Source: an uncultured Chloroflexia bacterium (GTDB lineage Bacteria; Chloroflexota; Anaerolineae; Anaerolineales; UBA4823). Taken from it: DNA of 64,000 nt. This document shows, piece by piece, positions 17,018 through 29,636 of the stretch; within the stretch, counting starts at the first letter, position 1, and every line of letters begins with the position of its first letter. Both the position numbers and the translations under genes were made by a program. The DNA is taken from contig CAWBYY010000004.1 in assembly GCA_963793095.1 (NCBI GenBank), positions 195,479-259,478 of the forward strand, given 5' to 3'. The notes under the pieces were generated by a model. That model saw only the letters and a list, made by a program, of their open reading frames with translations, was not told the origin of the DNA and did no database searches.

Positions 17018-17046
17018 TTGTCTTGCATTTTGTTTATAGATATAAT
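17018..17046 (+). promoter_or_regulatory. Putative pstS promoter TTGTCT-N17-TATAAT
   Basis: The -10 ends 7 nt before the pstS ATG (17054) and no Shine-Dalgarno sequence is present, so the transcript may be leaderless. Confidence 0.35.
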
Positions 17047-17053
17047 CGCACAG

Positions 17054-17947
17054 ATGGATAAATTGAGAATTTGCTTTATCCTGGTTGTTACACTGATAAT
17101 TTGGGGTTGTTCCGATCCCAGCAAAAATGCTGGGAATATTAATTCAGGCACATCAGATATATATATTGAGAATAAAGGCTCAGACACGATTGTAAATCTT
17201 GCGCTAGCCTGGGCTGAAGCGTACCATTTAATCCATCCAGAAATCAACATTTCCGTGACAGGTGGAGGTTCAGGTACTGGTATTGCGGCTTTAATTAATG
17301 GAACAGTGGATATCGCCAACGCTTCGAGAAAAATCAAAGACGAAGAATTTCAAAATGCAAATGATAATGGTGTAGAACCTGTTGAGCATGTAATAGCAAA
17401 AGATGCCATTGCCGTAATTGTAAATCAATCGAATCCCATAAAAAAACTTACCCTGCAACAAATTTCAGATATATACTCAGGAAAAATTGATAATTGGAAA
17501 GAAATTGGTGGGTTCGATCGCCCAATAGTACTCCTTTCCCGTGAGACTAATTCAGGAACGCATGTATATTTTCTGGAAGAAGTTCTGAGGCTCGGTGATA
17601 ATAATAACAAGACACTCTTCGCACGTGAAACTCTTCTCCTCCCTTCTTCAGAAGGTATAAGCTCTGAAATACGGTTAAATCCTAATGCCATTGGATATGA
17701 TGGATTGGGATACGTAACCCCTGATCTAAAAGTAATCGCAATTTCTGAAAATGAGGTTAATGGATACATCTATCCCACCCAGGAATCGGTGTTAAACAAT
17801 ACATATCCGATAGCGCGTGATCTTTATATGTATACCAATGGTTATCCGTCAGGTGCGATAAAGGAATATATCGATTGGATTTTTACTCCTGAAGCTCAAA
17901 ACATCGTTTCTGAACTTGGATTTGTACCAATAACAAATCCCAGATAG
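17054..17947 (+). CDS. pstS: Phosphate ABC transporter substrate-binding lipoprotein PstS
   Basis: Signal peptide with a lipobox (LIIWGC) and PBP motifs (GSDTIVNLA, GGGSGTGIAAL, SRETNSGT). Confidence 0.85.
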   Translation: MDKLRICFILVVTLIIWGCSDPSKNAGNINSGTSDIYIENKGSDTIVNLALAWAEAYHLIHPEINISVTGGGSGTGIAALINGTVDIANASRKIKDEEFQNANDNGVEPVEHVIAKDAIAVIVNQSNPIKKLTLQQISDIYSGKIDNWKEIGGFDRPIVLLSRETNSGTHVYFLEEVLRLGDNNNKTLFARETLLLPSSEGISSEIRLNPNAIGYDGLGYVTPDLKVIAISENEVNGYIYPTQESVLNNTYPIARDLYMYTNGYPSGAIKEYIDWIFTPEAQNIVSELGFVPITNPR

Positions 17948-18069
17948 ATGATTTTCACAATTAAATTTCTTCAATTTTTGGGAATTGACTTGATCAGAAG
18001 AAAGTTCTAATTCAACGTTTATTAGTAAAAATAAACGGATTACACCCAAATATTCGTTGAGAAAAGACA

Positions 18070-18966
18070 ATGAGAAAAAACAGCTATATTTTTGAATTTT
18101 TTATTACCCGGTTAATTAAGTTCACGGGTTATTCAGCAATAATCTTTGTAATTTTGATTTTTTTCTTTTTGGTCAATGAAGGATTGCCAACTTTTTTCCA
18201 AGTTCAATTCAGTTCGCTCTTTAGTAACCGTTGGTATCCAATCGAGGAGTATTTCGGTATATTCCCTCTAATTAGTGGATCTCTGGTTGTTACAGTGGGA
18301 GCGACAATAATTGCAATACCAGTTGGGTTGTGTACGGCAGTTTTCATATCCGAAATTGCTCCTGGTTGGGCAAGAGATATTCTCAAACCCTCTTTCGAAA
18401 TCTTAGGAGGTATCCCTTCTGTCGTCCTTGGTTTTCTGGGAATAATTATTCTTTCTCCATACCTAAGAGAATTATTTAATTTACCCACCGGACTTTCAGC
18501 GTTTACTGGTTCGATTTTACTGGCAGCGATGTCCCTCCCAACAATCGTATCAATTGCAGACGATTCGCTGGATGCAATTCCCCGTTCATATAGAAATGCG
18601 TCGATAGCCCTCGGGGCTACAGACTGGCAAACAATCTGGCACGTCACAGTTCCTGCAGCGCGCTCGGGTATTCTTACTGCCTTTATGCTGGGGATTGGAA
18701 GGACAATCGGAGAAACCATGACAGTTATGATGGTTACTGGTAATGCGCCTGTTTCATTTAAAGGATTAAACTCTTTCTTTTTCCCTGTCAGGACTATGAC
18801 TGCAACGATCGCCGCTGAAATGGGGGAAGTGGCTACCGGAAGTGTGCATTACCATGTCTTATTTTTCGTGGGATTGATCCTCTTTTTGTTTTCTCTTTTT
18901 ATCAATCTCGCTGCTTCGGCTGTGGTTTTCAGACAGAGTAAACGATCTGAACGATTATTATCTTAA
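18070..18966 (+). CDS. pstC: Phosphate ABC transporter permease PstC
   Basis: Multi-pass permease with an EAA-like loop (ALGATDWQTIWHVTVPAA). Confidence 0.85.
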   Translation: MRKNSYIFEFFITRLIKFTGYSAIIFVILIFFFLVNEGLPTFFQVQFSSLFSNRWYPIEEYFGIFPLISGSLVVTVGATIIAIPVGLCTAVFISEIAPGWARDILKPSFEILGGIPSVVLGFLGIIILSPYLRELFNLPTGLSAFTGSILLAAMSLPTIVSIADDSLDAIPRSYRNASIALGATDWQTIWHVTVPAARSGILTAFMLGIGRTIGETMTVMMVTGNAPVSFKGLNSFFFPVRTMTATIAAEMGEVATGSVHYHVLFFVGLILFLFSLFINLAASAVVFRQSKRSERLLS

Positions 18967-18992
18967 TTTTATACACTTGGAATCGATAATTA

Positions 18993-19865
18993 ATGATAAG
19001 AGAATATTTATCAACGCCTAGGATCAGACTCGGAATCCAGCGTTTCGGTTATATATTTCTCACACTAATCGCTGCAGCCACGTTGATCCCGGTTTTAGCT
19101 ATCGTAGTTCATATTTTTATCGAGGGGATTTCTACAATAACATGGGATTTCCTTACAGGTTATCCCAGGGATGGGATGCGAGCTGGCGGTATCTTCCCTG
19201 CAATAATTGGAACTCTATTGTTGACAATAGGAACAGCATTGTTTTCTATTCCGATTAGTCTCGGTGCTGCAATTTATCTTGCTGAATACGCACCCGATAA
19301 CCGCTGGACCAGAATGATCAGGATCGCAATAATAAATTTAGCAGGGATACCATCAGTAGTTTATGGATTATTTGGATTAGGCCTTTTTGTTATTTTTCTA
19401 CAATTTGGTACAAGCATATTGGCTGGTTGTCTTACACTTTCTATTATGACTTTACCGGTTTTTATCAGCACAGCTGAAGAGGCTATGCGAACGGTTCCAA
19501 GATCTTTCCGAGTTGTCAGCATTTCTTTAGGCGCCAGCCAATGGCAGACTATTAGGCGTATTGTCCTTCCTCAAGCACAACCTGGAATTTTAACTGGTAT
19601 CATCCTTGGTTTAGAAAGAGCAGTTGGTGAAACAGCGCCAATATTATTTACCACGGCAGCATTTTTCCTGCCTCAATTGCCAAATTCTCCTTTTGATGCA
19701 ACTATGGCCCTACCTTATCATCTGTTTGTGATTTCTACCCAAATTCCCGGAATGCCATTAAATCTTCAATATGGAACTGCTCTTGTATTGCTGTTATTCA
19801 TCCTTGGTATGAATATTCTCGCTACAATCATCAGGTCAAAAGCACGTGCCAAGCGCCAATGGTGA
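18993..19865 (+). CDS. pstA: Phosphate ABC transporter permease PstA
   Basis: SLGASQWQTIRRIVLPQA loop; position in the operon. Confidence 0.85.
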   Translation: MIREYLSTPRIRLGIQRFGYIFLTLIAAATLIPVLAIVVHIFIEGISTITWDFLTGYPRDGMRAGGIFPAIIGTLLLTIGTALFSIPISLGAAIYLAEYAPDNRWTRMIRIAIINLAGIPSVVYGLFGLGLFVIFLQFGTSILAGCLTLSIMTLPVFISTAEEAMRTVPRSFRVVSISLGASQWQTIRRIVLPQAQPGILTGIILGLERAVGETAPILFTTAAFFLPQLPNSPFDATMALPYHLFVISTQIPGMPLNLQYGTALVLLLFILGMNILATIIRSKARAKRQW

Positions 19866-19882
19866 CTGAATAAATTGCTATT

Positions 19883-20653
19883 ATGGAAAAACTAATAATT
19901 GAGGGGTTAAATCTTAAATATTCAGATGGCGTGGAAGCTTTACGCAATGTTAATATGAAAATTCCAGCCAACAGAATTACAGTAATTTTCGGACCTTCGG
20001 GTGGTGGAAAATCATCATTATTACGTGTAATTAATCGGTTAAACGATTTAACTGATGTCGCTAGTGTAACAGGAAAAGTAATGTTGGCGGACGAATATAA
20101 TCAACTCACAAATATTTTAGATCCGAATATAAATGTCATCAACTTACGCAGAAGGATCGGTATGGTTTTCGCAAGACCTGTGGTTCTTCCCCTGGATATT
20201 CGCAGCAATATCACATTTAGCCTGGAAATGTCAGGAGTCAAGGAAAAGAATAGGCTTGATACGAGCGTTGAATCGGTTCTAAGGCAAGCAGCCTTGTGGG
20301 ATGAAGTCAAATCGCGTTTAGATGAACCTGCCATTGCGCTCTCAGGTGGTCAACAACAACGCCTCTGCTTAGCTCGCAGTCTAGCTCTCGAACCAGAGTT
20401 GATTCTTCTTGATGAACCAACCTCCGGTCTGGACCCCATATCTACAGGATATATAGAAGCCACGTTACAGACTTTAAAGCAACAATATACAATAATATTG
20501 GTTCCCCATTCAGTTCAGCAAGCAGCACGAACTGCAGATTATGCCGCATACTTTTTACAGGGTGAATTAATTGAACATGGTCCTGGCGATAATCTCTTTA
20601 TTAATCCTCAGGATGAACGTACATCTAATTATATTGAAGGTCGTTTTGGATAA
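19883..20653 (+). CDS. pstB: Phosphate ABC transporter ATP-binding protein, divergent second PstB
   Basis: GPSGGGKSS, LSGGQQQRLCLAR, LLDEPTSGLDP, C-terminal YIEGRFG. Clearly more diverged than the copy at 16187-16955. Confidence 0.8.
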   Translation: MEKLIIEGLNLKYSDGVEALRNVNMKIPANRITVIFGPSGGGKSSLLRVINRLNDLTDVASVTGKVMLADEYNQLTNILDPNINVINLRRRIGMVFARPVVLPLDIRSNITFSLEMSGVKEKNRLDTSVESVLRQAALWDEVKSRLDEPAIALSGGQQQRLCLARSLALEPELILLDEPTSGLDPISTGYIEATLQTLKQQYTIILVPHSVQQAARTADYAAYFLQGELIEHGPGDNLFINPQDERTSNYIEGRFG

Positions 20654-20681
20654 TTAAAGAAAGTTTCTCAGGAGGTAATTA

Positions 20682-21374
20682 ATGTCCTCAAGAGTTCAAT
20701 TGGATAAAAAGATCCGCCATTTACTGGACGAAATCTTGATAATGAACAGTATGGTAGAAAATGCAACTCTGGAAGCCATAAACGCATTAAAAAACCGCGA
20801 TACTGATCTGGCGTTGAACGTTTATAGGAACGATAGTATGATCAATGATAAACGTTTTAAATTAGAAAATGACATTATTGTCACCATCGCAACGGTCCAA
20901 CCTATTATGGCGGGAGATTTACGTTTAATAGCTTCAATCTTGGAAATTGTTGGCGAGCTAGAAAGGATGGGCGATTATGCAAAAGGCATCGCTAAGATCT
21001 GCCTGAAAATCGGATCTCAGCCCCATGTAAAACCGCTTATTGACATTCCCCGAATGGCAGATATAGCGGTAGATATGCTGCACAGAGCAATCGGAGCATT
21101 TGTAGAACAGGATTCCGAGACAGCCAGTTTAATTCCCCAAGATGATCAACAAGTGGATGCTTTATACAACCAGGTGTATCGTGAGCTTGTAACCGTGATG
21201 TTGGCTAATCCTGCAACAATAGACCGTGCTAATATGCTCATGTGGGCTGCCCATAACCTCGAACGAATGGCTGACCGTGTTACTAACATTTGCGAGAGGA
21301 CCATTTTCGTTGCAACAGGTGACCTTATAGAACTAGCCGCATCCGATGATGAATTTAAAATTGATGAAGAATAA
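20682..21374 (+). CDS. phoU: Phosphate signalling complex protein PhoU
   Basis: Two PhoU repeats (ELERMGDYAKGIA and NLERMADRVTNICE). Confidence 0.9.
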   Translation: MSSRVQLDKKIRHLLDEILIMNSMVENATLEAINALKNRDTDLALNVYRNDSMINDKRFKLENDIIVTIATVQPIMAGDLRLIASILEIVGELERMGDYAKGIAKICLKIGSQPHVKPLIDIPRMADIAVDMLHRAIGAFVEQDSETASLIPQDDQQVDALYNQVYRELVTVMLANPATIDRANMLMWAAHNLERMADRVTNICERTIFVATGDLIELAASDDEFKIDEE

Positions 21375-21520: not shown

Positions 21521-21889
21521 ATGGATGTAATTAAGATTATCCTTTATATTGCAGCGGCGATATTAATATTTTTTGGGGTTCTATTTATATGGGGCGCTTT
21601 CGGTCCAGAAGGTTCAACAGGTTGGATACCTGTGGGAATCATCAGTGTGGCGATTGGATTTGGTTTAATCTGGTTAGGGAGTCGCAGAGCTAGGCAATCT
21701 GAGGCTGAAGGTTCTTCTATAACTTACCAGGTCGACCTGCCAGGTAATATCGAACTCGATCAATTCAGCTGTAAATCATGTGGCGGGGCTTTAAAAACCG
21801 ACAATATTGAGATGGTTGCTGGAGCGCCGGTAGTCAATTGCCCATATTGTGGTACTTCATACCAGTTAAGTGAAGAACCAAAATGGTGA
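21521..21889 (+). CDS. Two-TM membrane protein with a C-terminal CxxC...CxxC zinc ribbon
   Basis: Two hydrophobic helices, then CKSCGG ... CPYCG. AAGGAAGCGAGG ribosome binding site. First gene after the phoU terminator. Confidence 0.5.
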   Translation: MDVIKIILYIAAAILIFFGVLFIWGAFGPEGSTGWIPVGIISVAIGFGLIWLGSRRARQSEAEGSSITYQVDLPGNIELDQFSCKSCGGALKTDNIEMVAGAPVVNCPYCGTSYQLSEEPKW

Positions 21890-21956
21890 CCTTCCGGTTG
21901 TTAGAACATTTGACCATTCATAAATAATTTAGAATATTCATCTTGCTGGAGTGCTT

Positions 21957-22637
21957 ATGAAAAAGTTATTCGTCAGCATGGTTGTTTTGAGCATTATCTT
22001 GGTTATCCCGATTCAAGTTGCCGCTCAAACGTATCTTTTCAGCCTGGATAAGTTGGATGTACATGTATTTATAGATGAGGATGGAACATATGCAATCGAC
22101 TACATTCTGGTTTTTACAAATAATCCGGCTGCTTCTCCGATCGATTTTATAGATCTTGGCTTACCAAATCCCAATTTTGATATAAACCTGATCAGCGCTG
22201 AAATCAATGGGACACCCGTGGCGGATATTTCCAAAGGAGACTATCAGGGCACCGGATCCGGCGTTGCGCTTGCTCTGGCGCAGGATTCAATTCAACCCGG
22301 AGATTCGGGAGAGGTTCATGTATATATCGAAGGTGTCAGGAGAGTGTTGTATCCGGACAGCGAAAATAATGAATACGCCAGCGCTGTATTTTCACCCGTT
22401 TATTTTGGTTCCCAATTTGTAGAGGGCGACACGGATATAACAGTGACATTCCACCTGCCTCCCGGCGTTGAGCCTGATGAACCAAAATGGCATTCAGCTC
22501 CCCAGGGTTTTCCATCTGAACCTGTAACTGGTGTTGATGGTGACGGCAGAATCACTTACACCTGGTCAAATTCACAGGCCTCTGGAGACCAGCAATACAA
22601 ATTTGGAGCTTCTTTCCCATCCAAGATACGTCTCTGA
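21957..22637 (+). CDS. Exported beta-rich protein resembling the DUF2207 N-terminal ectodomain; probably the 5' part of a gene split from 22646-23650
   Basis: Signal peptide (LFVSMVVLSIILVIPIQVAAQ). The Y.F...LDV.V.I.EDGT..I.Y pattern is typical of DUF2207-like ectodomains (from memory). It ends 8 nt before the next ORF, whose frame is open upstream. Confidence 0.5.
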   Translation: MKKLFVSMVVLSIILVIPIQVAAQTYLFSLDKLDVHVFIDEDGTYAIDYILVFTNNPAASPIDFIDLGLPNPNFDINLISAEINGTPVADISKGDYQGTGSGVALALAQDSIQPGDSGEVHVYIEGVRRVLYPDSENNEYASAVFSPVYFGSQFVEGDTDITVTFHLPPGVEPDEPKWHSAPQGFPSEPVTGVDGDGRITYTWSNSQASGDQQYKFGASFPSKIRL

Positions 22638-22645
22638 AGATAGCA

Positions 22646-23650
22646 TTGTCAGATCCGATACAAATTTCCTTAGTCTTCTGGGTATTGGCACTGAAGCGGT
22701 CTGCCCGCAAATATTCTGTTGTGGGTCAATTCTTACTTGTAGCTGGTGGAATTTATCTGTCCTACCGGAATACCAGCAAGAGAAAACTGCAGTATCTCCC
22801 GCCAAAAATTGCAATTGAAGGACATGGAATAAAGCGCGGGCTTACCGCAGTTGAAGCCGCAATTTTATTGGAACAACCGATGGAAAAGATTTTGACCATG
22901 ATTCTTTTTTCAGCAATAAAAAAAGGCGCAGCTGTTGTCGTTGAACAAGATCCCCTTACCTTACAGGTGAGTGATCCGCCTCCGGATGGATTGTATAAGT
23001 ATGAAACCGATTTCCTTGAAGCTATGCAGATGGAGAATAAGCTAGCGCGCAGAAAAGCAATGCAGGATGGGATGATCGACCTTGTAAACAGTGTAGCGAA
23101 AAAAATGAAGGGATTCAGCAGAAATGAGACCATCGCATATTATAAAGATATAGTCAATCGCGCCTGGATCCAGGTTGAAACTGCAGAGACACCTGAAGTG
23201 AAAAGCGAGAAGTTTGAAGAAAATATGGATTGGACCATGCTTGATGAGGAATACGAAGATCGCACCAGAGATATATTCCGAACGGGTCCGGTCTTCATCC
23301 CCACCTGGTGGCCCCGCTATGATCCTGGCTATGGCCAGCATATACCTTCATCACCTAGACCAGCAGGAGCGCCATTACCTTCCACCGGTACACCTGGAGC
23401 TCCTTTGCCGCAGTTACCCGGTTCGGTTTTTGCTGCCTCAATTGTCAACAGTGTTCAGAATTTTTCTAGTGAGGTGGTCGGGAATATTACCGATTTTACC
23501 AATGGAGTGACTCAGAAGACAAACCCGGTCCCTCTCGCAAGCCGGGGACGAGGAGGCAGCGGTCGAAGTTTTTCCAGCGGTGGATGCGCCTGCGCCTGTG
23601 CGTGTGCCTGCGCAGGATGCGCATGTGCCTGCGCTGGCGGCGGCAGGTAG
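22646..23650 (+). CDS. Membrane protein with a DUF2207-like cytoplasmic segment, a Pro-rich region and a C-terminal poly(Cys-Ala) tail
   Basis: TM segment GQFLLVAGGIYLSY, then KRGLTAVEAAILLEQP..., a PRPAGAPLPSTGTPGAPLP stretch, and the ending SSGGCACACACACAGCACACAGGGR. The annotated start is TTG with no ribosome binding site. Confidence 0.55.
   Translation: MSDPIQISLVFWVLALKRSARKYSVVGQFLLVAGGIYLSYRNTSKRKLQYLPPKIAIEGHGIKRGLTAVEAAILLEQPMEKILTMILFSAIKKGAAVVVEQDPLTLQVSDPPPDGLYKYETDFLEAMQMENKLARRKAMQDGMIDLVNSVAKKMKGFSRNETIAYYKDIVNRAWIQVETAETPEVKSEKFEENMDWTMLDEEYEDRTRDIFRTGPVFIPTWWPRYDPGYGQHIPSSPRPAGAPLPSTGTPGAPLPQLPGSVFAASIVNSVQNFSSEVVGNITDFTNGVTQKTNPVPLASRGRGGSGRSFSSGGCACACACACAGCACACAGGGR
23579..23647 (+). 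repeat. Coding low-complexity (TGY-GCN)n tract encoding GG-(CA)5-G-(CA)3-GGGR
   Basis: Read directly: ggt gga tgc gcc tgc gcc tgt gcg tgt gcc tgc gca gga tgc gca tgt gcc tgc gct ggc ggc ggc agg. Synonymous codons are mixed. Confidence 0.9.
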
Positions 23651-23683
23651 GATTCTAAGTTATTGAGAAGGATTAACCCACAG

Positions 23684-25030
23684 ATGAATCGTTTTCTGTC
23701 AAACATTAAAAACCGATTGCGAAATTCACAATCGGATTATGCACAACCAGGTTTGTTTCAGTACCGGAGGGAAAATATAGGTGAATCCTCCAAAATCCAT
23801 CTGCGCGTTGACAGTGATGGTTCTGGCCTTCTCATTGTTAATGCAAATAGGGTTATGCATCTGAATCCAACGGCCGCGTTTATGGCTAGATTATTTTTGG
23901 AAAACACTTCGACTGAAACTTCAATACATTTGATTAAATCCCGTTACAGAACCACTCTCGATGAAGTAAATTCTGATTATATTCAATTTAAGGACCAGAT
24001 AGAGGAATTAATCCGACCAGATGGAGCCTGTCCAATTCATGATCTTAATCTGGAAATAAACCCTCCGTTTCATGTCAAGCCAACTGCTCCATACAGGATG
24101 GATCTTGCGCTTACCTACCGGTGCAACAATGATTGCCCGCATTGTTACAACGCACGCCCCAGGAATTTTATGGAATTAGATACTCAAGAATGGAGGCAGA
24201 TCATCAGTAAACTCTGGGAGATAGGCATTCCCCACATAGTTTTTACTGGAGGTGAGCCCACGTTAAGAGGCGATTTATGTGAATTAATCTCACACGCAGA
24301 GAAGATTGGTCAGATTTCAGGATTAAACACCAATGGTCGCCGGCTTCAGGATAAGGCTTATGTCAGGGATCTGGTAAATGCTGGCCTTGACCATGTCCAG
24401 ATAACCCTGGAATCGCACCATGCCGCTATCCATGATCAAATGGTTGCATCCAGGGGCGCCTGGAATCAAACGGTAGCAGGGATAAAAAATGCCCTTGATA
24501 GCCCGCTTTATGTGATGACCAATACTACCCTCTTACAACCTAACCGCGAAGACCTGGCAGATACTATTAATTTTCTGGCGAAGTTAGGCGTTCCCACTGT
24601 TGGGATGAATGCACTCATCTACTCAGGAAAAGGTAAAAGTGTTCACACTGGGATAGACGAACGGGAATTACAGCCTTTTCTGGAAACCGCCCGTTCACTG
24701 ACACAGAAAAATAATCAAAAATTGATCTGGTACACACCAACTCAATACTGCAATTTTGATCCGGTTCAAATGGAATTAGGTGTAAAAGGTTGCACTGCTG
24801 CCCGCTACAATATGTGCATCGAACCGGATGGCAATGTACTTCCATGCCAATCTTATTACAAAACGCTCGGTAACCTCCTTTTTGATGAATGGGATTCAAT
24901 CTGGAACCATGAACTGGCAGTTACGTTGAGGGAACGAACAAATCTCCCTGACAAATGTTACCAGTGTGCGCTTTTATCTGAATGTGGTGGCGGCTGCCCA
25001 CTATATCATCAACATCTCAAAAACAACTGA
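23684..25030 (+). CDS. Radical SAM/SPASM domain enzyme with an N-terminal PqqD/RRE-like domain
   Basis: CNNDCPHC (CxxxCxxC, 24122-24145), GIPHIVFTGGEPTLR, and SPASM cysteines (CIEPDGNVLPC ... CYQCALLSECGGGC). The N-terminal roughly 110 aa resemble a PqqD-like peptide-binding domain. ATG at 23684 has a GAGAAGGA ribosome binding site. Confidence 0.85.
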   Translation: MNRFLSNIKNRLRNSQSDYAQPGLFQYRRENIGESSKIHLRVDSDGSGLLIVNANRVMHLNPTAAFMARLFLENTSTETSIHLIKSRYRTTLDEVNSDYIQFKDQIEELIRPDGACPIHDLNLEINPPFHVKPTAPYRMDLALTYRCNNDCPHCYNARPRNFMELDTQEWRQIISKLWEIGIPHIVFTGGEPTLRGDLCELISHAEKIGQISGLNTNGRRLQDKAYVRDLVNAGLDHVQITLESHHAAIHDQMVASRGAWNQTVAGIKNALDSPLYVMTNTTLLQPNREDLADTINFLAKLGVPTVGMNALIYSGKGKSVHTGIDERELQPFLETARSLTQKNNQKLIWYTPTQYCNFDPVQMELGVKGCTAARYNMCIEPDGNVLPCQSYYKTLGNLLFDEWDSIWNHELAVTLRERTNLPDKCYQCALLSECGGGCPLYHQHLKNN

Positions 25031-25086: not shown

Positions 25087-26241
25087 ATGCAAAGAATAAC
25101 CAAATCCTTTAAGAAATCAATATCTCCTGAAAAAATTGTTCAACCCGGGATTTACCAGTATCTATCACCTGCTGATGATCCTAGAAATTACCGACTGCAC
25201 TTAAGGATCGAGGTGGATGGGAATGGAATCCTGATAATTAATGCCAGCACAATCCTGCATTTAAACACGACCGCAACAGAATATGCCTATTTTCTGATAA
25301 AGAATACATCTCCAGAAATTGTAGCAAAAGAAATCTCCAGAAGGTATAAAGTTCAACCTTCTACTGCCAAAAGAGATTATCTTGATCTATCTGAAAGGAT
25401 TCAGGATCTTATAAATACACCTGATCTTGATCCTGTTTCTTTTCTGGATATGGAGCGGATTTTGCCATATAGTGGACATATCTCTGCTCCATACAGATTG
25501 GATTGTGCAATAACATATCGCCTGCCAGCATTGGATGACCCGAATTTTGCTCCCTCTGACAGGGTAGGTAAAGAATTGGACACAACAGAATGGTTAAAGA
25601 TTATTGATAAAGCATGGTCAGTTGGTATCCCACATATTGTTTTTACCGGAGGCGAACCAACCCTGAGGGATGATCTTCCGCAGCTTTTACAGCAAACCGA
25701 GAATAATGGCCAGGTGTCAGGATTGCTAACAGATGGCATCCGACTCTCGGAACCTGATTATTTAAATGAATTATTGCTCACAGGATTGGATTATGTGATG
25801 ATTGTTTACAACGACAAAAAAGAAGTAAGGGACGGACTGCAGGCATGTTTGTTGGAAGACTTATTTGTATCGGTTCATTTAACTCTTGCGGAAAATAATT
25901 TAGATGACATTACAAGTTCTATTGAAAATTTTAAATTAATCGGAGTAAAGGGAATTTCCCTCAGTGCCCAGACCCAAAACCTGGCTCCCCAGCTTGAAAA
26001 TCTTCGCAATAAGATAGCTGAGCATCAGCTTGATTTGATATGGAACCTTCCGGTCCCATATTCATCATTTAATCCAGTAAAATTTGAAACAAATTACAGG
26101 GGAAAAGAATCGGGGGAAGGTAGTGGCTGGCTTTATATAGAACCTGATGGAGATGTTTTACCTGCTCAGGGAATAAATCAGGTTCTGGGTAATTTCCTTA
26201 AGGATGATTGGAGGACTATCTGGAAAGGGCATTCTGATTGA
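25087..26241 (+). CDS. Pseudo-radical-SAM paralog lacking the CxxxCxxC and SPASM cysteines
   Basis: Collinear with the previous protein, including an identical GIPHIVFTGGEPTLR. LPALDDPN replaces CNNDCPHC and LPAQ replaces LPCQ. It ends before the CxxCx5Cx3C block and has only 2 Cys in 384 aa. Confidence 0.7.
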   Translation: MQRITKSFKKSISPEKIVQPGIYQYLSPADDPRNYRLHLRIEVDGNGILIINASTILHLNTTATEYAYFLIKNTSPEIVAKEISRRYKVQPSTAKRDYLDLSERIQDLINTPDLDPVSFLDMERILPYSGHISAPYRLDCAITYRLPALDDPNFAPSDRVGKELDTTEWLKIIDKAWSVGIPHIVFTGGEPTLRDDLPQLLQQTENNGQVSGLLTDGIRLSEPDYLNELLLTGLDYVMIVYNDKKEVRDGLQACLLEDLFVSVHLTLAENNLDDITSSIENFKLIGVKGISLSAQTQNLAPQLENLRNKIAEHQLDLIWNLPVPYSSFNPVKFETNYRGKESGEGSGWLYIEPDGDVLPAQGINQVLGNFLKDDWRTIWKGHSD

Positions 26242-27044
26242 CCCCAACTTTAACCGAATGGCATAATCGTTTCCGGCAGCAAGCCGGGTGGACCGCTGCA
26301 GTCAGGGAATATCTCTTCAATAGAATACCGGATTATTCCAATTTAAAAATCCTTGAAGTGGGAAGCGGAACAGGGGCGGTACTGGGACACTTTAGGGATG
26401 AAATCATAAATTCAAACCCAAATAATTTTACTGGCATGCAAAGCGCAAATCTGGTTGGGGTCGATATAAATCAAGAATTCCTTGCATTCGCAAAGGTTCA
26501 TTACCCATTTGTTTTTTATACTTTAGCCGATGGAATTACATTACCGTTCAATGACAATACATTTGACCTATCTTATACCCATTTTTTTCTGATGTGGTTG
26601 AGTGAACCTGTTAAAGTTCTCAAGGAGATTGTAAGAGTAACGAAACCAGGTTGTCCTGTACTCTCACTTGCAGAACCTGATTATGGCGGTCGAATTGATT
26701 ATCCCGATGATTTTAAGCCAATTTCAAAAGCGCAGAGTAATTCTCTTCAAATGCAAGGCGCAGATCCCTTCTTTGGCCGGAAATTAACTGCACACTTGGT
26801 CAAGGCAGGCCTGGTGGATATTGAAACCGGTGTATTGGGGGGAAATTGGAATAGAACGGAATTGATAAAAGATTTCAAAATTGAATGGCAATTTTTAATC
26901 TCAGATTTGCAAATGGTCAATTCAGATTTAGATTTGGAAGCGTTTCGTTTGAAAGAAGAAAAGTACCGCCAGGAAGGAGAGCGGGTATTATTCGTTCCCA
27001 CTTTTTATGCATCCGGTAAGAAACCGGATAGAGTCGCGACTTAG
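26238..27044 (+). CDS. Class I SAM-dependent methyltransferase
   Basis: ILEVGSGTGAV motif I and a downstream acidic loop. Its TTG start overlaps the previous stop (TTGA). Confidence 0.75.
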   Translation: MTPTLTEWHNRFRQQAGWTAAVREYLFNRIPDYSNLKILEVGSGTGAVLGHFRDEIINSNPNNFTGMQSANLVGVDINQEFLAFAKVHYPFVFYTLADGITLPFNDNTFDLSYTHFFLMWLSEPVKVLKEIVRVTKPGCPVLSLAEPDYGGRIDYPDDFKPISKAQSNSLQMQGADPFFGRKLTAHLVKAGLVDIETGVLGGNWNRTELIKDFKIEWQFLISDLQMVNSDLDLEAFRLKEEKYRQEGERVLFVPTFYASGKKPDRVAT

Positions 27045-27388
27045 GTTTTTAGAAATCCAATTTCTATATTATTATTTCGAATCCTGACAGGATAAGCGCA
27101 AATATCTATTACAGCCGGCAAAGATACTGCCTTCCCAGTCCGGATATCAAAACGGGCTCCGTGGCGTGGGCATATTATGTTGTCTCCTTCCAGATCACCC
27201 TCACCCAGAGGGCCATCATCATGGCTGCAAATGTCATCTACGGCGAAGTAATCGCCATTTATCCTGAACAATACAATCTGTTTATCATCAACTTCAAGAA
27301 ATAGTCTTTCCCCTTCATTTATCTCACCAATTGAACAAATTTCAATAAATTCGAAAGTATCAGGGTCATATTTAGTATCATCAAGCAT
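27041..27388 (-). CDS. Rieske [2Fe-2S] ferredoxin domain protein
   Basis: CSHDDGPL ... CPRHGARF motif. Last gene of the suf operon. Confidence 0.8.
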   Translation of the reverse strand: MLDDTKYDPDTFEFIEICSIGEINEGERLFLEVDDKQIVLFRINGDYFAVDDICSHDDGPLGEGDLEGDNIICPRHGARFDIRTGKAVSLPAVIDICAYPVRIRNNNIEIGFLKT

Positions 27389-27436
27389 AATTGTTTACTA
27401 TTTTTCAGAAAATGACCTTATAGTTTGGATTTCCGT

Positions 27437-27823
27437 TCATTCACCAATACTTTCACCAACACCATAAATGCCAGCTTTGAGGACCTTCAATGAAAGTAAG
27501 GCACATTTTATACGTGCTGGTCCTAATTCTAGACCCAGCATTTCAAGTAAATCCTCTTTTGTATACTCTTTAATTTCTTCCAGCGATTTTCCCTGGATGG
27601 ATTCAACAAGCAGATCTGCGGATGCCTGTGATATCGCGCATCCATAGCCGTCAAATGCTGCATCAGTAACAACACCTTCTTCATCTATGCGCAAATCTAT
27701 CCTTATGTGATCTCCGCACAGCGGATTGTCATCTTCAAAGGATATATCGTGTGGATCTAATTCCCCCTTAAATTGTGGGTTTTTATAACGGTCAATGATG
27801 ATTTCTCTGTATAAATCTTCCAT
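27437..27823 (-). CDS. sufU: SUF system Fe-S scaffold, SufU/NifU-like
   Basis: NPLCGD, GCAIS and a C-terminal RIKCALL motif. Confidence 0.8.
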   Translation of the reverse strand: MEDLYREIIIDRYKNPQFKGELDPHDISFEDDNPLCGDHIRIDLRIDEEGVVTDAAFDGYGCAISQASADLLVESIQGKSLEEIKEYTKEDLLEMLGLELGPARIKCALLSLKVLKAGIYGVGESIGE

Positions 27824-27857
27824 GTTTTAATTTTAATAATTATTTTTTGTCGGTAAT

Positions 27858-29123
27858 TTATATTCCGAATATATCTAGCACCGAATATAATCCTTCAGCC
27901 AGTTTATCAATTTCATCCCTTGTATTGTACAGGTAGAAACTTGCCCGCGCTGACGCAGGTATGTTCAATTTTTGATGCAGAGGCATAGCGCAGTGATGAC
28001 CAGCTCTTATGGCAATTCCTTCATTGTCCAATATCTGGGCGATATCATGCGGGTGCGAACCACTCATAGTAAAAGATACAACACCCCCTTTTTGCCTGGC
28101 ATCTGGACCATAGATTTTCAAACCGGGGACTTCAGTTAACCGCTCAATCGCATAACTTACAATATCCTGTTCGTGCTCAAAGATCTTTTCCATTCCGATT
28201 GATCCTAGATAATCAACTGCAGCGCCAAAACCAACCACTTCCGCAATTGCCGGGGTTCCGGCTTCAAATTTATATGGCAGGTCGTTTGCAGAGAATTCCC
28301 GCAACTTCACTTGCTTTATCATGTCCCCGCCTCCCAGGAATGGAGGCATCTTTTCCAGTAAATCCCGTTTACCGTATAAAACGCCAATTCCACTGGGTCC
28401 GCACATTTTATGCCCTGAAAATGCCAAAAAATCCATATCCAAGGCCTGAACATCCACAGGGAAATGCGGTACTGACTGGGCTCCATCGACAATGGTTGTT
28501 GCTCCAGCATTGCGAGCCATTTGTATTATTTCAGAGGCAGGAGTGACCGTTCCAAGTACATTTGACATTTGTGTGAAGCTAACCGCTTTCGGATTTAATT
28601 TCAACAGCTGTTCATATTCTTCAAGATCAAGCAGCCCTTCTTCTGTTACCGTGATGAACTCCAAATTTATATCGATAAATTCGGACAACAACTGCCATGG
28701 AACCAGGTTCGAATGGTGTTCCATCTCGGTCAAAATTACAGTATCACCCGGTTTCAAATTTGTTCGGCCCCAACTTTGAACGATCAAATTTATAGATTCA
28801 GTAGTATTACGGGTGAATATGATTTGTTCTGGTGATGGGGAATTGATAAATTCAGAAATTTTATTTCGGGCGCTTTCATATTGCTCAGTAGCATCCTCCG
28901 CCAGTTTATGGATTCCGCGGTGAATATTGGCATATGAATTTTTATAGAGGTGATCCATTGCATCCAGAACCTGTTCAGGTTTTTGACTCGTCGCAGCTGA
29001 ATCAAGATAAACCAGTGGGACACCTGGTTTTATATCCAGTGCCAGGATTGGAAAGTCTTTTCGGTAGCGGAGAAAATTAGAATCATTATCAGCGTGTGAT
29101 GTAAGTATCATAAAGTCTTCCAA
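27858..29123 (-). CDS. sufS: Cysteine desulfurase SufS (class II)
   Basis: HHSNLVPW, SGHKMCGPSGIGVLYG (PLP Lys) and RAGHHCA (active-site Cys). Confidence 0.9.
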   Translation of the reverse strand: MEDFMILTSHADNDSNFLRYRKDFPILALDIKPGVPLVYLDSAATSQKPEQVLDAMDHLYKNSYANIHRGIHKLAEDATEQYESARNKISEFINSPSPEQIIFTRNTTESINLIVQSWGRTNLKPGDTVILTEMEHHSNLVPWQLLSEFIDINLEFITVTEEGLLDLEEYEQLLKLNPKAVSFTQMSNVLGTVTPASEIIQMARNAGATTIVDGAQSVPHFPVDVQALDMDFLAFSGHKMCGPSGIGVLYGKRDLLEKMPPFLGGGDMIKQVKLREFSANDLPYKFEAGTPAIAEVVGFGAAVDYLGSIGMEKIFEHEQDIVSYAIERLTEVPGLKIYGPDARQKGGVVSFTMSGSHPHDIAQILDNEGIAIRAGHHCAMPLHQKLNIPASARASFYLYNTRDEIDKLAEGLYSVLDIFGI

Positions 29124-29162
29124 TTCCCTGTCAGTATAAATTAATAAGCACAGATGTATATC

Positions 29163-29447
29163 TTATATGGTTTGTCTTTTTCTCTTACGACGAAGAGGTC
29201 TGCGCAAATTTTGTGAATCTTTTGGACACCACAATACATGATCTGGAACCATCCAGCCATCAGTGAGGTAAACGTTTTCTTTAAATTGGACTGCGATCAT
29301 TTTTGGATCAACCTGTACTACTGTGCCTTCCAACCAATCACGAATTCGATCGGTGTTATCTTCGTGATCGCAATACACCTCAACTCGATCGCCGACTTTG
29401 AAACCTCTTTCTTCATCTGGATCTCTAGTAAAAAAAACTCCTGACAA
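29163..29447 (-). CDS. Small hypothetical protein with a basic tail, embedded in the suf operon
   Basis: 94 aa with an SH3/Tudor-like look (GDRVEVY...GTVVQV) and a C-terminal RRPLRRKRKRQ. Preceded by a 189-nt AT-rich gap. Confidence 0.4.
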   Translation of the reverse strand: MSGVFFTRDPDEERGFKVGDRVEVYCDHEDNTDRIRDWLEGTVVQVDPKMIAVQFKENVYLTDGWMVPDHVLWCPKDSQNLRRPLRRKRKRQTI

Positions 29448-29636
29448 TTTCTTCTCCTTATTTATAGTGCTTTTTATTTTTATAGTATCCCAACCAGTTC
29501 AAATTTAAGGATTCCCCACTTAAATTTTTATTTTTTTCTACTAATACACCGCAGTTGTGAAGGATAGATGTAATATTTTACTTTATCTGAGGTACAGTTC
29601 AAATTTTATTCGAAATTAAATTTACATATCAGAAAA

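What the first reader, a model, noticed from the sequence alone, without database searches (positions are those of the whole stretch)
23579..23647. C-terminal GG-(CA)5-G-(CA)3-GGGR tail encoded with mixed synonymous codons
Eight cysteines alternate strictly with alanine at the extreme C-terminus of a membrane-associated protein, after a Gly/Ser/Arg spacer (SRGRGGSGRSFSSGG). The DNA is not a pure microsatellite: Cys uses TGC and TGT, and Ala uses GCC, GCG, GCA and GCT. That argues for selection on the peptide rather than recent slippage. Such a tail could be a metal or Fe-S ligand array, a lipidation site, or a substrate for Cys-directed radical chemistry by the adjacent enzyme.
Basis: seen in the sequence. 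Interest (0 to 1): 0.7.

Follow-up and report, generated by a model that had tools for sequence, protein, structure and literature searches.

The report
Conserved Cys-Ala tail, radical-SAM cassette
The Cys-Ala tail is real: it is the most conserved part of an uncharacterised membrane protein found in bacteria and archaea, its gene nearly always sits beside a peptide-modifying radical-SAM enzyme, and it is therefore probably that enzyme's built-in substrate.

Summary
Window 23585-23647 encodes (CA)5-G-(CA)3-GGGR followed by a stop, with mixed synonymous codons. It is not a slippage tract. About 560-aa homologues exist in at least 833 clusters at 50% identity, across Chloroflexota, several other bacterial phyla, and Bathyarchaeia, Methanomassiliicoccales and Asgard archaea. 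They end in the same (CA)4-G-(CA)3-GGGR even at about 30% overall identity. The tail holds the only invariant columns of the protein. 66 identical tails are encoded by 65 different DNA sequences.

The window copy is split by two 1-nt insertions, so the annotated 334-aa ORF is only the C-terminal part of a signal peptide, beta-sandwich ectodomain, TM helix and cytosolic domain protein.

The gene sits in a conserved cassette: a 2-TM zinc-ribbon protein ending ...EEPKW, the tail protein, a PqqD-like (RRE) radical-SAM/SPASM enzyme, a cysteine-less dead paralogue of that enzyme, and a class I methyltransferase. A catalytic rSAM lies within 6 kb in 87 of 95 tail loci with enough flank.

Best reading (about 0.5): the tail is a protein-fused, RiPP-like core whose cysteines the rSAM modifies. 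Thioether cross-links are the leading guess for the chemistry, which is unproven.

The main rival is an unmodified metal or Fe-S binding tail. No Pfam or NCBIfam family and no paper covers it.

The parts
21521..21889 (+). ZnR122: a small protein with 2 TM helices and a cytosolic zinc ribbon. Its extreme C-terminus is the invariant motif YQ[LI]xE[EA]PKW. It is the conserved upstream partner of the tail protein.
   Evidence: 72 orthologues were found directly upstream of tail genes. C-terminus alignment. Archaeal variants are EEP[TL]W and N[IV]NW. Pfam gives only weak zinc-ribbon hits.
21957..23650 (+). Full tail-protein gene, about 562 aa if the frameshifts are repaired. Layout: signal peptide, beta-sandwich ectodomain, one TM helix, cytosolic winged-helix plus helical domain, conserved pre-tail segment, Gly/Ser/Arg linker, Cys-Ala tail.
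   Evidence: tblastn of the 93%-identical 563-aa homologue P0002 covers the region in three successive frames. AlphaFold model. Homologues are about 560 aa.
22623..22624 (+). First 1-nt insertion (A to AA), shifting the reading frame.
   Evidence: DNA alignment with L202: TCC-AGA versus TCCAAGA. Three-frame translation.
22728..22729 (+). Second 1-nt insertion (A to AA), shifting the frame again into that of ORF 22646..23650.
   Evidence: DNA alignment with L202: GTC-ATT versus GTCAATT. Three-frame translation.
23408..23533 (+). Conserved pre-tail segment (P-x-LPG-xx-FA...F...VT..TNPxP). It is predicted as low-confidence amphipathic helices and is a candidate leader-like recognition segment for the RRE domains. 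This role is inferred.
   Evidence: Consensus in the diverse alignment. Conserved columns P484 L486 P487 G488 F491 A492 F513 T514 T521 N522 P523 P525. pLDDT 50-68.
23534..23584 (+). Gly/Ser/Arg-rich linker of variable length and sequence.
   Evidence: Distance from TNP to the first Cys is at least 11 residues, median 17. Sequence is variable among homologues.
23585..23647 (+). Cys-Ala tail (CA)5-G-(CA)3-GGGR. The family-invariant core is (CA)4-G-(CA)3-GGGR at 23591-23647. The stop codon TAG is at 23648-23650.
23684..25030 (+). PqqD-like (RRE) domain + radical-SAM (CxxxCxxC) + SPASM (CX2CX5CX3C) enzyme. The ATG at 23684 matches the database protein P0270; a TTG at 23663 is also possible.
   Evidence: Pfam Radical_SAM 7.6e-26, SPASM 1.5e-9, PqqD 5.9e-4. 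Orthologues are named 'PqqD family peptide modification chaperone'. Model and Foldseek hits to SkfB, SuiB and PqqE. Profile search of the PDB.
25087..26241 (+). Catalytically dead paralogue of the rSAM. It keeps the PqqD-like N-terminal domain and the TIM-barrel remnant, but has no CxxxCxxC motif and no SPASM cysteines.
   Evidence: Pfam Radical_SAM 9.6e-10. 50/50 orthologues lack both Cys motifs, with a mean of 2.5 Cys. PqqD (weak) on the orthologue in L001.
26238..27044 (+). Class I SAM-dependent methyltransferase, the last gene of the cassette.
   Evidence: Pfam Methyltransf_11 5.4e-16. Present in most cassettes, including archaeal ones. The best PDB sequence hit is LahSB, a RiPP C-terminal carboxyl methyltransferase (E 1e-10; PMC11285071).

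Best explanation
The tail is the functional C-terminal module of a bitopic membrane protein. That protein has a Sec signal peptide, an extracytoplasmic beta-sandwich, one TM helix, and a cytosolic winged-helix/helical domain. It continues with a conserved pre-tail segment, a flexible Gly/Ser/Arg linker, and (CA)4-5-G-(CA)3-GGGR at the carboxyl end, facing the cytoplasm. The protein belongs to a conserved five-gene cassette: ZnR122, tail protein, RRE-rSAM/SPASM, dead RRE-rSAM paralogue, and methyltransferase. Proposed mechanism: the C-terminal roughly 80 residues behave like a RiPP precursor fused to a protein. The PqqD-like (RRE) domain of the rSAM, possibly helped by the dead paralogue acting as a chaperone, binds the conserved pre-tail segment. 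The linker then delivers the Cys-Ala core to the active site. 5'-deoxyadenosyl-radical chemistry modifies the cysteines or their Ala/Gly neighbours. Intramolecular thioether cross-links are the most likely chemistry: Cys-S to an alpha- or beta-carbon of Ala or Gly, as in sactipeptides and ranthipeptides. The methyltransferase may then cap a carboxylate. The product stays attached to the membrane protein. What is shown: the anatomy, extreme purifying selection on the tail, restriction of the tail to this family, the conserved neighbourhood across domains of life, and the RiPP-maturase architecture of the enzyme. What is inferred: that the tail, rather than the ZnR122 C-terminus, is the substrate (about 0.5); that the tail is cytosolic (from positive-inside residues and the signal peptide, with no topology predictor run); and the type of chemistry (about 0.25).
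For: Conservation. All 119 complete C-termini among the top 120 homologues (58-93% id) end in CACACACAGCACACAGGGR. Among 50%-identity cluster representatives, 108 carry a tail, 67 with the (CA)4-5-G-(CA)3-GGGR form and the rest close variants. In 88 diverse members (24% mean column identity), the only invariant columns are C554, C556, A557, C558, A559 and G561. Mean top-residue frequency is 0.93 in the tail against 0.21-0.57 in every other region. 66 identical 19-aa tails have 65 distinct DNA sequences, all synonymous codons are used, and third-position identity is 0.43.

Exclusivity. Of 127 occurrences of the DNA pattern for CACACAGGGR-stop in 120 metagenome loci, 117 lie on family members. 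Eight of the other 10 are contig-edge fragments, and two sit on short ORFs that look like remnants of the family (one keeps the family's TNPPP motif).

Neighbourhood. A catalytic rSAM orthologue lies within 6 kb in 53/58 genome loci and 34/37 metagenome loci with enough flank, and ZnR122 in 56/58. Two further apparent exceptions prove to carry cassette genes beyond the 6-kb or identity limits: L147 the whole cassette, L130 only a pseudo-type paralogue and the methyltransferase. The cassette recurs with different gene orders and otherwise unrelated flanks. It is found in Zixibacteria, Aminicenantes, Acidobacteriota, Hydrogenedentales, Bathyarchaeia, Methanomassiliicoccales, Promethearchaeota and Hodarchaeales. 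Some loci have two tail-protein paralogues per single enzyme set, as RiPP precursors often do.

Enzyme. It has CxxxCxxC plus a full SPASM motif and a PqqD-like N-domain. Its nearest solved structures, by sequence and by fold, are the RRE-rSAM RiPP maturases SkfB (a sactisynthase), SuiB and PqqE.

Precedents. StsB makes a nested Cys-to-Gly sactionine ladder on a CxCxCx4GxGxG core (PMC10288494). TIGR04222 membrane proteins are remote relatives: 17/88 members hit the model below its cut-off, best E 4.4e-7. They carry Cys-containing low-complexity C-terminal tails and have been proposed as whole-protein substrates of a different Cys-modifying RiPP enzyme class, the MNIOs (PMC12452194).

Ala conservation. 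Ala is as invariant as Cys, which fits a reaction partner or a steric constraint better than a metallothionein-type site.
Against: There is no experimental or structural evidence of any modification. The cassette holds a second invariant C-terminus (ZnR122 ...EEPKW) that could be the true substrate. From the enzyme side the link is looser. Of 8 diverse rSAM-family members sampled, 4 had no tail gene within 6 kb: three Asgard and one Edwardsbacteria. Three tail loci (L061, L063, L133) have no rSAM nearby, yet carry a canonical tail. The PqqD hit on the window protein itself is below Pfam's cut-off (20.6 against 23.4 bits). The enzyme reaches no NCBIfam maturase cut-off. Thioether formation would consume the thiols, and no downstream function for such a product is evident. 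Variants without the central Gly, such as (CA)6GGGR and (CA)5GGGR, argue against one fixed hairpin topology.
Confidence: 0.5

Rival explanations
1. The tail is an unmodified thiolate ligand array. The alternating Cys-Ala strand or hairpin would present up to 7 thiols on one face and bind a metal (Cu, Zn, Cd, As) or Fe-S cluster(s) at the cytoplasmic face of the membrane. The neighbouring rSAM would then act on something else, for example the ZnR122 ...EEPKW C-terminus, or would use the tail only as a cluster or sulfur scaffold.
For: Seven invariant cysteines with CxC spacing resemble metallothionein-type motifs (general knowledge). The window cassette lies next to the suf Fe-S assembly operon. 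Canonical tails persist in three loci with no rSAM nearby. ZnR122 offers an alternative invariant C-terminal substrate, and Lys/Trp cross-linking rSAMs (SuiB, WgkB) are among the enzyme's relatives. Modified Cys tails in bufferins chelate copper (PMC12452194).
Against: The intervening Ala residues and the GGGR end are as invariant as the Cys, unlike the variable X of metal-binding CxC motifs. Linkage to suf and pst is seen only in close relatives, whereas linkage to the rSAM spans phyla and domains. RRE domains point to peptide substrates, and the tail region has the leader-linker-core layout.
Confidence: 0.3
2. The tail is a lineage-specific version of the generic low-complexity Gly/Ser/Cys tails of DUF2207/TIGR04222-type membrane proteins. 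Its role would be structural, such as a flexible tether, oligomerisation or disulfide formation, and the rSAM neighbourhood would reflect a shared pathway rather than direct modification.
For: 17/88 members give sub-threshold TIGR04222 hits and 9/88 give DUF2207_C hits. TIGR04222 proteins have unstructured Ser/Gly-rich C-termini with interspersed Cys, and many have no modifying enzyme nearby (PMC12452194).
Against: Generic low-complexity tails drift, whereas this one is invariant to the residue from Chloroflexota to Asgard archaea. The cassette composition is retained despite gene-order changes.
Confidence: 0.1
3. The tail is a lipidation (S-acylation) site that pins the C-terminus to the membrane.
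For: No tool result supports it.
Against: There is no acyltransferase or lipoprotein-processing gene in the conserved cassette. Strict Ala alternation and the GGGR end are not explained by this model.
Confidence: 0.03
4. The tail is a non-selected microsatellite or slippage tract, or an artefact.
For: There is a weak period-6 DNA repeat. The first CA unit varies among relatives.
Against: The peptide is identical across hundreds of divergent genomes with scrambled synonymous codons. It is always in frame and directly followed by a stop codon. None is expected by chance.
Confidence: 0.01

Closest known systems
Sactipeptide and ranthipeptide systems: StsA/StsB, SkfA/SkfB, and SCIFF/CteB (the last from general knowledge)
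   Same: A rSAM/SPASM enzyme with an RRE acts on a Cys-rich C-terminal core that follows a recognition segment. StsA's core CxCxCx4GxGxG has the same alternating-Cys design and small-residue acceptors (PMC10288494). SkfB is the top structural and sequence match of the window's rSAM.
   Different: Here the 'precursor' is the C-terminus of a roughly 560-aa membrane protein, not a small exported peptide. The cassette has no protease or exporter. The enzyme scores far below the NCBIfam cut-offs for StsB (87.5 against 625), SkfB (72.8 against 300) and AlbA (64.7 against 850). The core is (CA)n with 7 Cys. There is an obligatory dead rSAM paralogue and a zinc-ribbon partner.
TIGR04222 membrane proteins associated with MNIO (DUF692) enzymes (PMC12452194)
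   Same: These are membrane proteins with an unstructured low-complexity C-terminal tail containing Cys, genetically linked to a Cys-modifying RiPP-type enzyme, and proposed to be modified as whole proteins. The tail family gives sub-threshold TIGR04222 hits over its TM and winged-helix region.
   Different: The enzyme class differs (rSAM/SPASM rather than MNIO). The tail here is a fixed, invariant motif rather than a variable Ser/Gly/Cys stretch. It is predicted cytosolic, not periplasmic. The taxa differ (Anaerolineae and archaea against mostly Actinomycetota). Scores are below the model cut-off (at most about 19 bits in the members inspected, against 43). The TIGR04222-MNIO link is itself untested experimentally.
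DUF2207 (PF09972 / PF20990) membrane proteins
   Same: The overall layout is the same: N-terminal signal or TM segment, extracytoplasmic beta domain, TM helix, cytosolic segment, and low-complexity C-terminal tail. 9/88 members hit DUF2207_C weakly.
   Different: No member reaches the Pfam thresholds, and the window protein and its close relatives give no hit at all. From my own knowledge, DUF2207 tails are Gly-rich without the Cys-Ala motif.
QhpC/QhpD and anSME/sulfatase (general knowledge): rSAM/SPASM enzymes that modify Cys in real proteins
   Same: These are rSAM/SPASM enzymes acting on cysteines of a folded or large protein that retains the modification. anSME appears among the fold matches.
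   Different: The tail has no sulfatase CxPxR/CxAxR motif. There is no quinohaemoprotein context. Sequence similarity is only at superfamily level.
Metallothionein-type CxC metal-thiolate motifs
   Same: Dense cysteines with single-residue spacing.
   Different: The spacer residues are invariant Ala. It is a short terminal appendage of a membrane protein with a dedicated rSAM cassette. No metal-related gene is conserved in the cassette.

Membership tests
RRE-dependent radical-SAM/SPASM peptide-maturation (RiPP-type) system | Enzyme with a radical-SAM CxxxCxxC cluster motif | tested here: met
   CNNDCPHC is present in ORF 23663..25030. Pfam Radical_SAM E 7.6e-26. 65/71 orthologues carry the motif.
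RRE-dependent radical-SAM/SPASM peptide-maturation (RiPP-type) system | C-terminal SPASM domain with the CX2CX5CX3C auxiliary-cluster motif | tested here: met
   CYQCALLSECGGGC. Pfam SPASM E 1.5e-9. 69/71 rSAM-type orthologues carry the motif, 65 of them together with CxxxCxxC.
RRE-dependent radical-SAM/SPASM peptide-maturation (RiPP-type) system | RiPP recognition element (PqqD-like winged helix) fused to or next to the enzyme | tested here: met
   The window protein scores PqqD E 5.9e-4, 20.6 bits, below the 23.4 cut-off. About half of the 120 orthologues carry precomputed PF05402, and PGAP names several 'PqqD family peptide modification chaperone'. The model shows strands plus three helices at residues 23-109, and full-length alignment to the RRE-containing SkfB and SuiB.
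RRE-dependent radical-SAM/SPASM peptide-maturation (RiPP-type) system | Co-encoded substrate with a conserved core after a recognition segment | tested here: inconclusive
   The tail protein's C-terminus has the layout conserved segment, variable linker, invariant core, and is adjacent in about 92% of loci. However, it is fused to a 560-aa protein, and a second candidate (ZnR122 ...EEPKW) exists.
RRE-dependent radical-SAM/SPASM peptide-maturation (RiPP-type) system | Demonstrated enzyme-dependent modification of the core | not testable with these tools
   This needs co-expression and mass spectrometry.
Sactipeptide / ranthipeptide | Maturase belongs to a recognised sacti- or ranthisynthase family | tested here: not met
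   NCBIfam scores are far below the cut-offs: StsB 87.5/625, SkfB 72.8/300, AlbA 64.7/850. No equivalog model is reached.
Sactipeptide / ranthipeptide | Cys-to-carbon thioether cross-links in the product | not testable with these tools
   This rests on inference alone. The precedent is the StsA CxCxC...GxGxG core (PMC10288494).
TIGR04222 domain-containing membrane protein | Score at or above the NCBIfam cut-off (43 bits) for TIGR04222.1 | tested here: not met
   The window halves and P0002 give no hit. 17/88 diverse members hit below the cut-off, best E 4.4e-7, with 16-19 bits in the members inspected, over the TM and winged-helix region. This indicates a remote relationship, not membership.
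DUF2207 (PF09972 / PF20990) | Pfam gathering-threshold match | tested here: not met
   There are no hits for the window ORFs or for P0002, P0096 and P0045, even at E up to 10. 9/88 members hit DUF2207_C weakly (best E 1.2e-4) and 3/88 hit DUF2207.
Anaerobic sulfatase-maturase substrate | C/S-x-P/A-x-R motif around the target Cys | tested here: not met
   No Cys in the tail sequence CACACACACAGCACACAGGGR has Arg at position +4.
Microsatellite / low-complexity slippage tract | Uniform repeat unit at the DNA level, with length and frame polymorphism among relatives | tested here: not met
   Codons are mixed, TRF score is 37, and there are 65 DNA versions of one peptide. The tail is in frame with an adjacent stop codon in 78/81 loci scanned. 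Read-level polymorphism was not testable.

The most novel reading that the evidence does not exclude
This would be a previously undescribed class of protein-anchored, RiPP-like post-translational modification. An invariant (Cys-Ala)n C-terminal core on a bitopic membrane protein would be converted into a thioether ladder or another Cys-derived structure, possibly a new protein-bound metal-binding cofactor. The converting machinery would be an RRE-rSAM/SPASM enzyme working with a cysteine-less paralogue, a methyltransferase and a zinc-ribbon membrane partner. The system is conserved from Chloroflexota to Bathyarchaeia and Asgard archaea, so it would be a housekeeping function rather than a secondary metabolite.
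Probability: 0.35. Interest if true: 0.85.

Novelty: new variant of a known kind. Interest (0 to 1): 0.7.

Why it matters
If the tail is the rSAM's substrate, this is a widespread system: thousands of sequence clusters, several bacterial phyla and three archaeal lineages including Asgard. Radical-SAM RiPP chemistry would here be applied to the end of a full-size membrane protein rather than to a secreted peptide. That would add a second, independent example of an emerging theme: membrane proteins of the DUF2207/TIGR04222 type whose low-complexity Cys tails are targets of Cys-modifying enzymes. In Actinomycetota the proposed enzymes are MNIOs; here it is rSAM/SPASM. It also offers a very simple, fully defined 19-residue substrate for discovering what an uncharacterised rSAM subfamily and its dead paralogue do. 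Finally, it gives a handle on the function of a protein that appears to be near-universal in Anaerolineae.

Tried and rejected
- **Family assignment.** Pfam and NCBIfam scans of the window ORFs and full-length homologues gave no family, even at permissive E-values. A profile search of PDB sequences gave nothing.
- **Literature.** Full-text searches for CACACA with radical SAM, for CACACAGGGR, for EEPKW, and for cysteine-repeat terms found no description of the motif or the cassette.
- **Tail on other scaffolds.** I tested whether the tail is a mobile module found on unrelated proteins. It is not, in 120 metagenome loci.
- **suf/pst linkage.** I considered whether proximity to the suf and pst operons is functional. 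It is confined to close relatives, so it reflects local synteny.
- **Haem-pathway enzymes.** I considered reading the rSAM and its dead paralogue as haem or d1 enzymes (AhbC/D, NirJ), because these are the top NCBIfam hits. I rejected this: scores are 4- to 6-fold below the cut-offs, and the RRE domain plus the conserved partners point to a peptide substrate.
- **Reverse association.** The test from the enzyme side gave a mixed result, 4 of 8. It is reported as evidence against, not hidden.
- **Not possible here.** I could not reach tail-less relatives of the family, because search listings are capped at the closest hits.
Full report
**Observation.** Window 23579-23647 encodes GG-(CA)5-G-(CA)3-GGGR, followed by TAG, at the end of ORF 22646..23650 (+). 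The codons are mixed: TGC and TGT for Cys; GCC, GCG, GCA and GCT for Ala. Tandem Repeats Finder reports only a weak period-6 array (score 37). A (TGY GCN)x4 pattern occurs only here in the window, against none in 100 shuffles.

**The gene is larger than the ORF.** Homologues are about 560 aa. tblastn of the 93%-identical P0002 covers window 21957-23650 in three successive frames. Alignment with the DNA of that relative (L202) shows two single-A insertions in the window, at about 22623 and 22728. The 334-aa ORF, deposited as P0001, is therefore only the C-terminal 60%. Several long-read-style MAG loci show similar split genes. Assembly error is thus plausible, but a recent pseudogene is not excluded.

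**Architecture.** An AlphaFold model built from 106 homologues has these parts:
- a signal or TM helix at residues 2-21;
- a very confident beta-sandwich at 25-225;
- a TM helix at 245-276;
- a winged-helix domain at 293-337 and a helical region at 347-441;
- a disordered stretch;
- two low-confidence amphipathic helices at 487-521;
- a disordered tail.

The N-terminal signal peptide and the cluster of Arg/Lys residues after the TM helix place the tail in the cytoplasm. This placement is an inference; I ran no topology predictor. By Foldseek, the ectodomain resembles ribophorin I and the N-domain of M1 aminopeptidases. No Pfam, NCBIfam or PDB family is reached. Among 88 diverse members, 17 give sub-threshold TIGR04222 hits (best E 4.4e-7) and 9 give DUF2207_C hits, over the TM and winged-helix region. 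The family is therefore a remote relative of those 'low-complexity tail' membrane proteins, not a member.

**Selection on the tail.**
- All top-120 homologues (58-93% id) end in CACACACAGCACACAGGGR, except one deposited as partial, which stops inside the motif.
- An exhaustive HMMER search of 1.84 billion cluster representatives finds 833 clusters (E up to 1e-3).
- Of 108 of the listed representatives that carry a tail, 56 have (CA)4G(CA)3GGGR and 11 have (CA)5G(CA)3GGGR.
- The remainder are close variants: (CA)3G(CA)4, (CA)2G(CA)4, a single (CA)5 block, or three-block 10-Cys forms such as CVCACASCACACACVSCACACASGGAG.
- In an 88-sequence alignment with 24% mean identity, the only invariant columns of the whole protein lie in the tail.
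- Mean top-residue frequency is 0.93 in the tail against 0.21-0.57 in every other region.
- Across 66 loci with the identical 19-residue core there are 65 different DNA sequences. Every synonymous codon is used and third-position identity is 0.43.

This is purifying selection on the peptide, on the alanines and the GGGR end as much as on the cysteines.

**Distribution.** A scan of one genome per GTDB species returned 141 relatives, which is a lower bound. Most are Anaerolineae. Others come from Zixibacteria, Aminicenantes, Acidobacteriota, Hydrogenedentales, Armatimonadota, Methanomassiliicoccales, Bathyarchaeia and Promethearchaeota. A Hodarchaeales copy turned up later. A DNA pattern for CACACAGGGR-stop in metagenomes hit 127 sites in 120 loci. 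Of these, 117 lie on family members, and 8 of the other 10 are contig-edge fragments. The remaining two sit on short ORFs that look like remnants of the family; one keeps its TNPPP motif. In that sample the tail is specific to this family.

**Neighbourhood.** In the window the gene is preceded by a 122-aa protein with 2 TM helices and a zinc ribbon (21521-21889). It is followed by three genes:
- a PqqD-like + radical-SAM + SPASM enzyme (23684-25030);
- a paralogue lacking all Fe-S cysteines (25087-26241);
- a class I methyltransferase (26238-27044).

Among tail loci with enough flank, a catalytic rSAM orthologue lies within 6 kb in 53/58 genome loci and 34/37 metagenome loci. The zinc-ribbon protein is present in 56/58. 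Two further apparent exceptions carry cassette genes beyond my distance or identity limits. L147 has the whole cassette. L130 has only a pseudo-type paralogue and the methyltransferase. Three loci with no rSAM of either type nearby remain: L061, L063 and L133.

The pst/phoU and suf genes that flank the cassette in the window are shared only by close relatives. The cassette itself recurs in archaea and distant bacteria, with unrelated flanks and sometimes a different gene order (ZnR, rSAM, dead paralogue, one or two tail proteins, MTase). All 50 dead-paralogue orthologues lack both CxxxCxxC and the SPASM motif. 65 of 71 rSAM-type orthologues have both.

**The enzyme.** About half of its orthologues carry a precomputed PqqD domain, and PGAP calls several 'PqqD family peptide modification chaperone'. 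The window protein's own PqqD hit is just below the cut-off. Its model has a strand-plus-three-helix N-domain. By profile search and by Foldseek, its closest solved structures are the RRE-containing RiPP maturases SkfB (a sactisynthase) and SuiB, then PqqE and anSME. It reaches no NCBIfam equivalog cut-off. It is therefore an uncharacterised subfamily with RiPP-maturase architecture.

**Interpretation.** The last roughly 80 residues of the tail protein have the layout of a RiPP precursor: a conserved segment (P-x-LPG..FA...F...VT..TNPxP), a variable Gly/Ser/Arg linker (median 17 residues), and an invariant core. Two RRE-bearing proteins sit next door. Some cassettes carry two tail-protein paralogues per enzyme set.

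Two literature parallels fit this reading. StsB installs a nested Cys-to-Gly sactionine ladder on a CxCxCx4GxGxG core (PMC10288494). TIGR04222 membrane proteins, with Cys-bearing low-complexity C-termini, have been proposed as whole-protein substrates of MNIO enzymes (PMC12452194).

I therefore favour, at about 0.5, that the tail is a protein-fused core modified on its cysteines by the rSAM. Thioether cross-linking is the leading but unproven chemistry, at about 0.25. One geometric point supports this, as inference only. The single central Gly shifts the Cys/Ala register, so a hairpin centred on it places every Cys opposite an Ala or Gly.

The methyltransferase's best PDB sequence match is LahSB, a RiPP C-terminal carboxyl methyltransferase (PMC11285071). 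The match covers only the SAM-binding core, so it is a weak lead.

**Caveats and rivals.**
- The zinc-ribbon partner also has an invariant extreme C-terminus: YQ[LI]xE[EA]PKW in bacteria, EEP[TL]W in Bathyarchaeia, N[IV]NW in Asgard. It could be the real substrate or a docking motif.
- From the enzyme side, only 4 of 8 diverse rSAM-family members sampled had a tail gene within 6 kb. Three Asgard loci and one Edwardsbacteria locus did not, although the MTase stayed adjacent in two of them.
- An unmodified metal or Fe-S binding role (about 0.3) is not excluded. The invariance of the Ala spacers argues against a simple metallothionein-like site.
- A purely structural low-complexity tail (about 0.1), lipidation (about 0.03) and slippage (below 0.01) are unlikely.

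**Novelty.** No Pfam or NCBIfam model covers the tail protein, and the rSAM reaches no NCBIfam equivalog cut-off. No paper in the searchable library mentions the tail motif or the cassette, and the only papers containing the string EEPKW concern unrelated eukaryotic proteins. It is best filed as a new variant of a known kind: RRE-dependent rSAM/SPASM maturation with the core fused to a membrane protein. There is a real chance that it is a new protein-anchored modification system of wide phylogenetic reach.

Noticed in passing
window 22623-22624 and 22728-22729: There are two single-A insertions relative to the 93%-identical relative L202. They split the roughly 562-aa gene into ORFs 21951..22637, 22531..22818 and 22646..23650. 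The database entry P0001 (334 aa) is only the C-terminal piece. This is either an assembly indel or a recent pseudogene.
   Followed up: yes
window 21521-21889: A 122-aa protein with 2 TM helices and a zinc ribbon always sits just upstream of tail-protein genes. Its extreme C-terminus ...YQLxEEPKW is invariant in bacteria and becomes EEP[TL]W or N[IV]NW in archaea. It is a second candidate substrate or docking motif for the rSAM pair.
   Followed up: partly
window 25087-26241: This is a paralogue of the adjacent rSAM that has lost the CxxxCxxC motif and all SPASM cysteines in 50/50 orthologues, but keeps the PqqD-like N-domain. It is a conserved 'pseudo-rSAM', presumably a non-catalytic peptide-binding partner.
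   Followed up: partly
window 26238-27044: The class I methyltransferase closing the cassette has LahSB as its best PDB sequence hit. LahSB is a C-terminal carboxyl methyltransferase of lanthipeptides (E 1e-10, SAM-binding region only). The methyltransferase stays next to the rSAM even in Asgard loci that lack a nearby tail gene (L204, L205).
   Followed up: partly
window 17018-21374 and 27041-30747: The cassette is flanked by pstS-pstC-pstA-pstB-phoU upstream. Downstream, on the minus strand, lie a Rieske protein, an IscU/SufU-like protein, SufS-like and SufD/SufB-like genes. This synteny is shared only with close Anaerolineae relatives (L001/L059, L026).
   Followed up: partly
window 21957-22625 (ectodomain): The N-terminal extracytoplasmic beta-sandwich (pLDDT above 95) resembles the luminal domain of ribophorin I (OST complex) and the N-domain of M1 aminopeptidases by Foldseek. 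The similarity is of fold only.
   Followed up: no
window 23512-23706 (- strand): The antisense 64-aa ORF (…AQAHAHPAQAHAQAQAHPP…) is the mirror image of the Cys-Ala tract and is almost certainly spurious.
   Followed up: no
L004, L034, L071, L076, L116, L147 (related loci): Some cassettes contain two tail-protein paralogues in tandem, each with its own Cys-Ala tail. One subfamily has the permuted tail (CA)3-G-(CA)4 or (CA)2-G-(CA)4 and the gene order ZnR, rSAM, dead paralogue, tail protein(s), MTase.
   Followed up: partly
L203, L204, L205, L208 (related loci): These rSAM-family members (45-49% identical to the Asgard orthologue) have no tail-protein gene within 6 kb. Three are from Asgard archaea and one from Edwardsbacteria. 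Either the genes are unlinked there or the enzyme has another substrate.
   Followed up: partly
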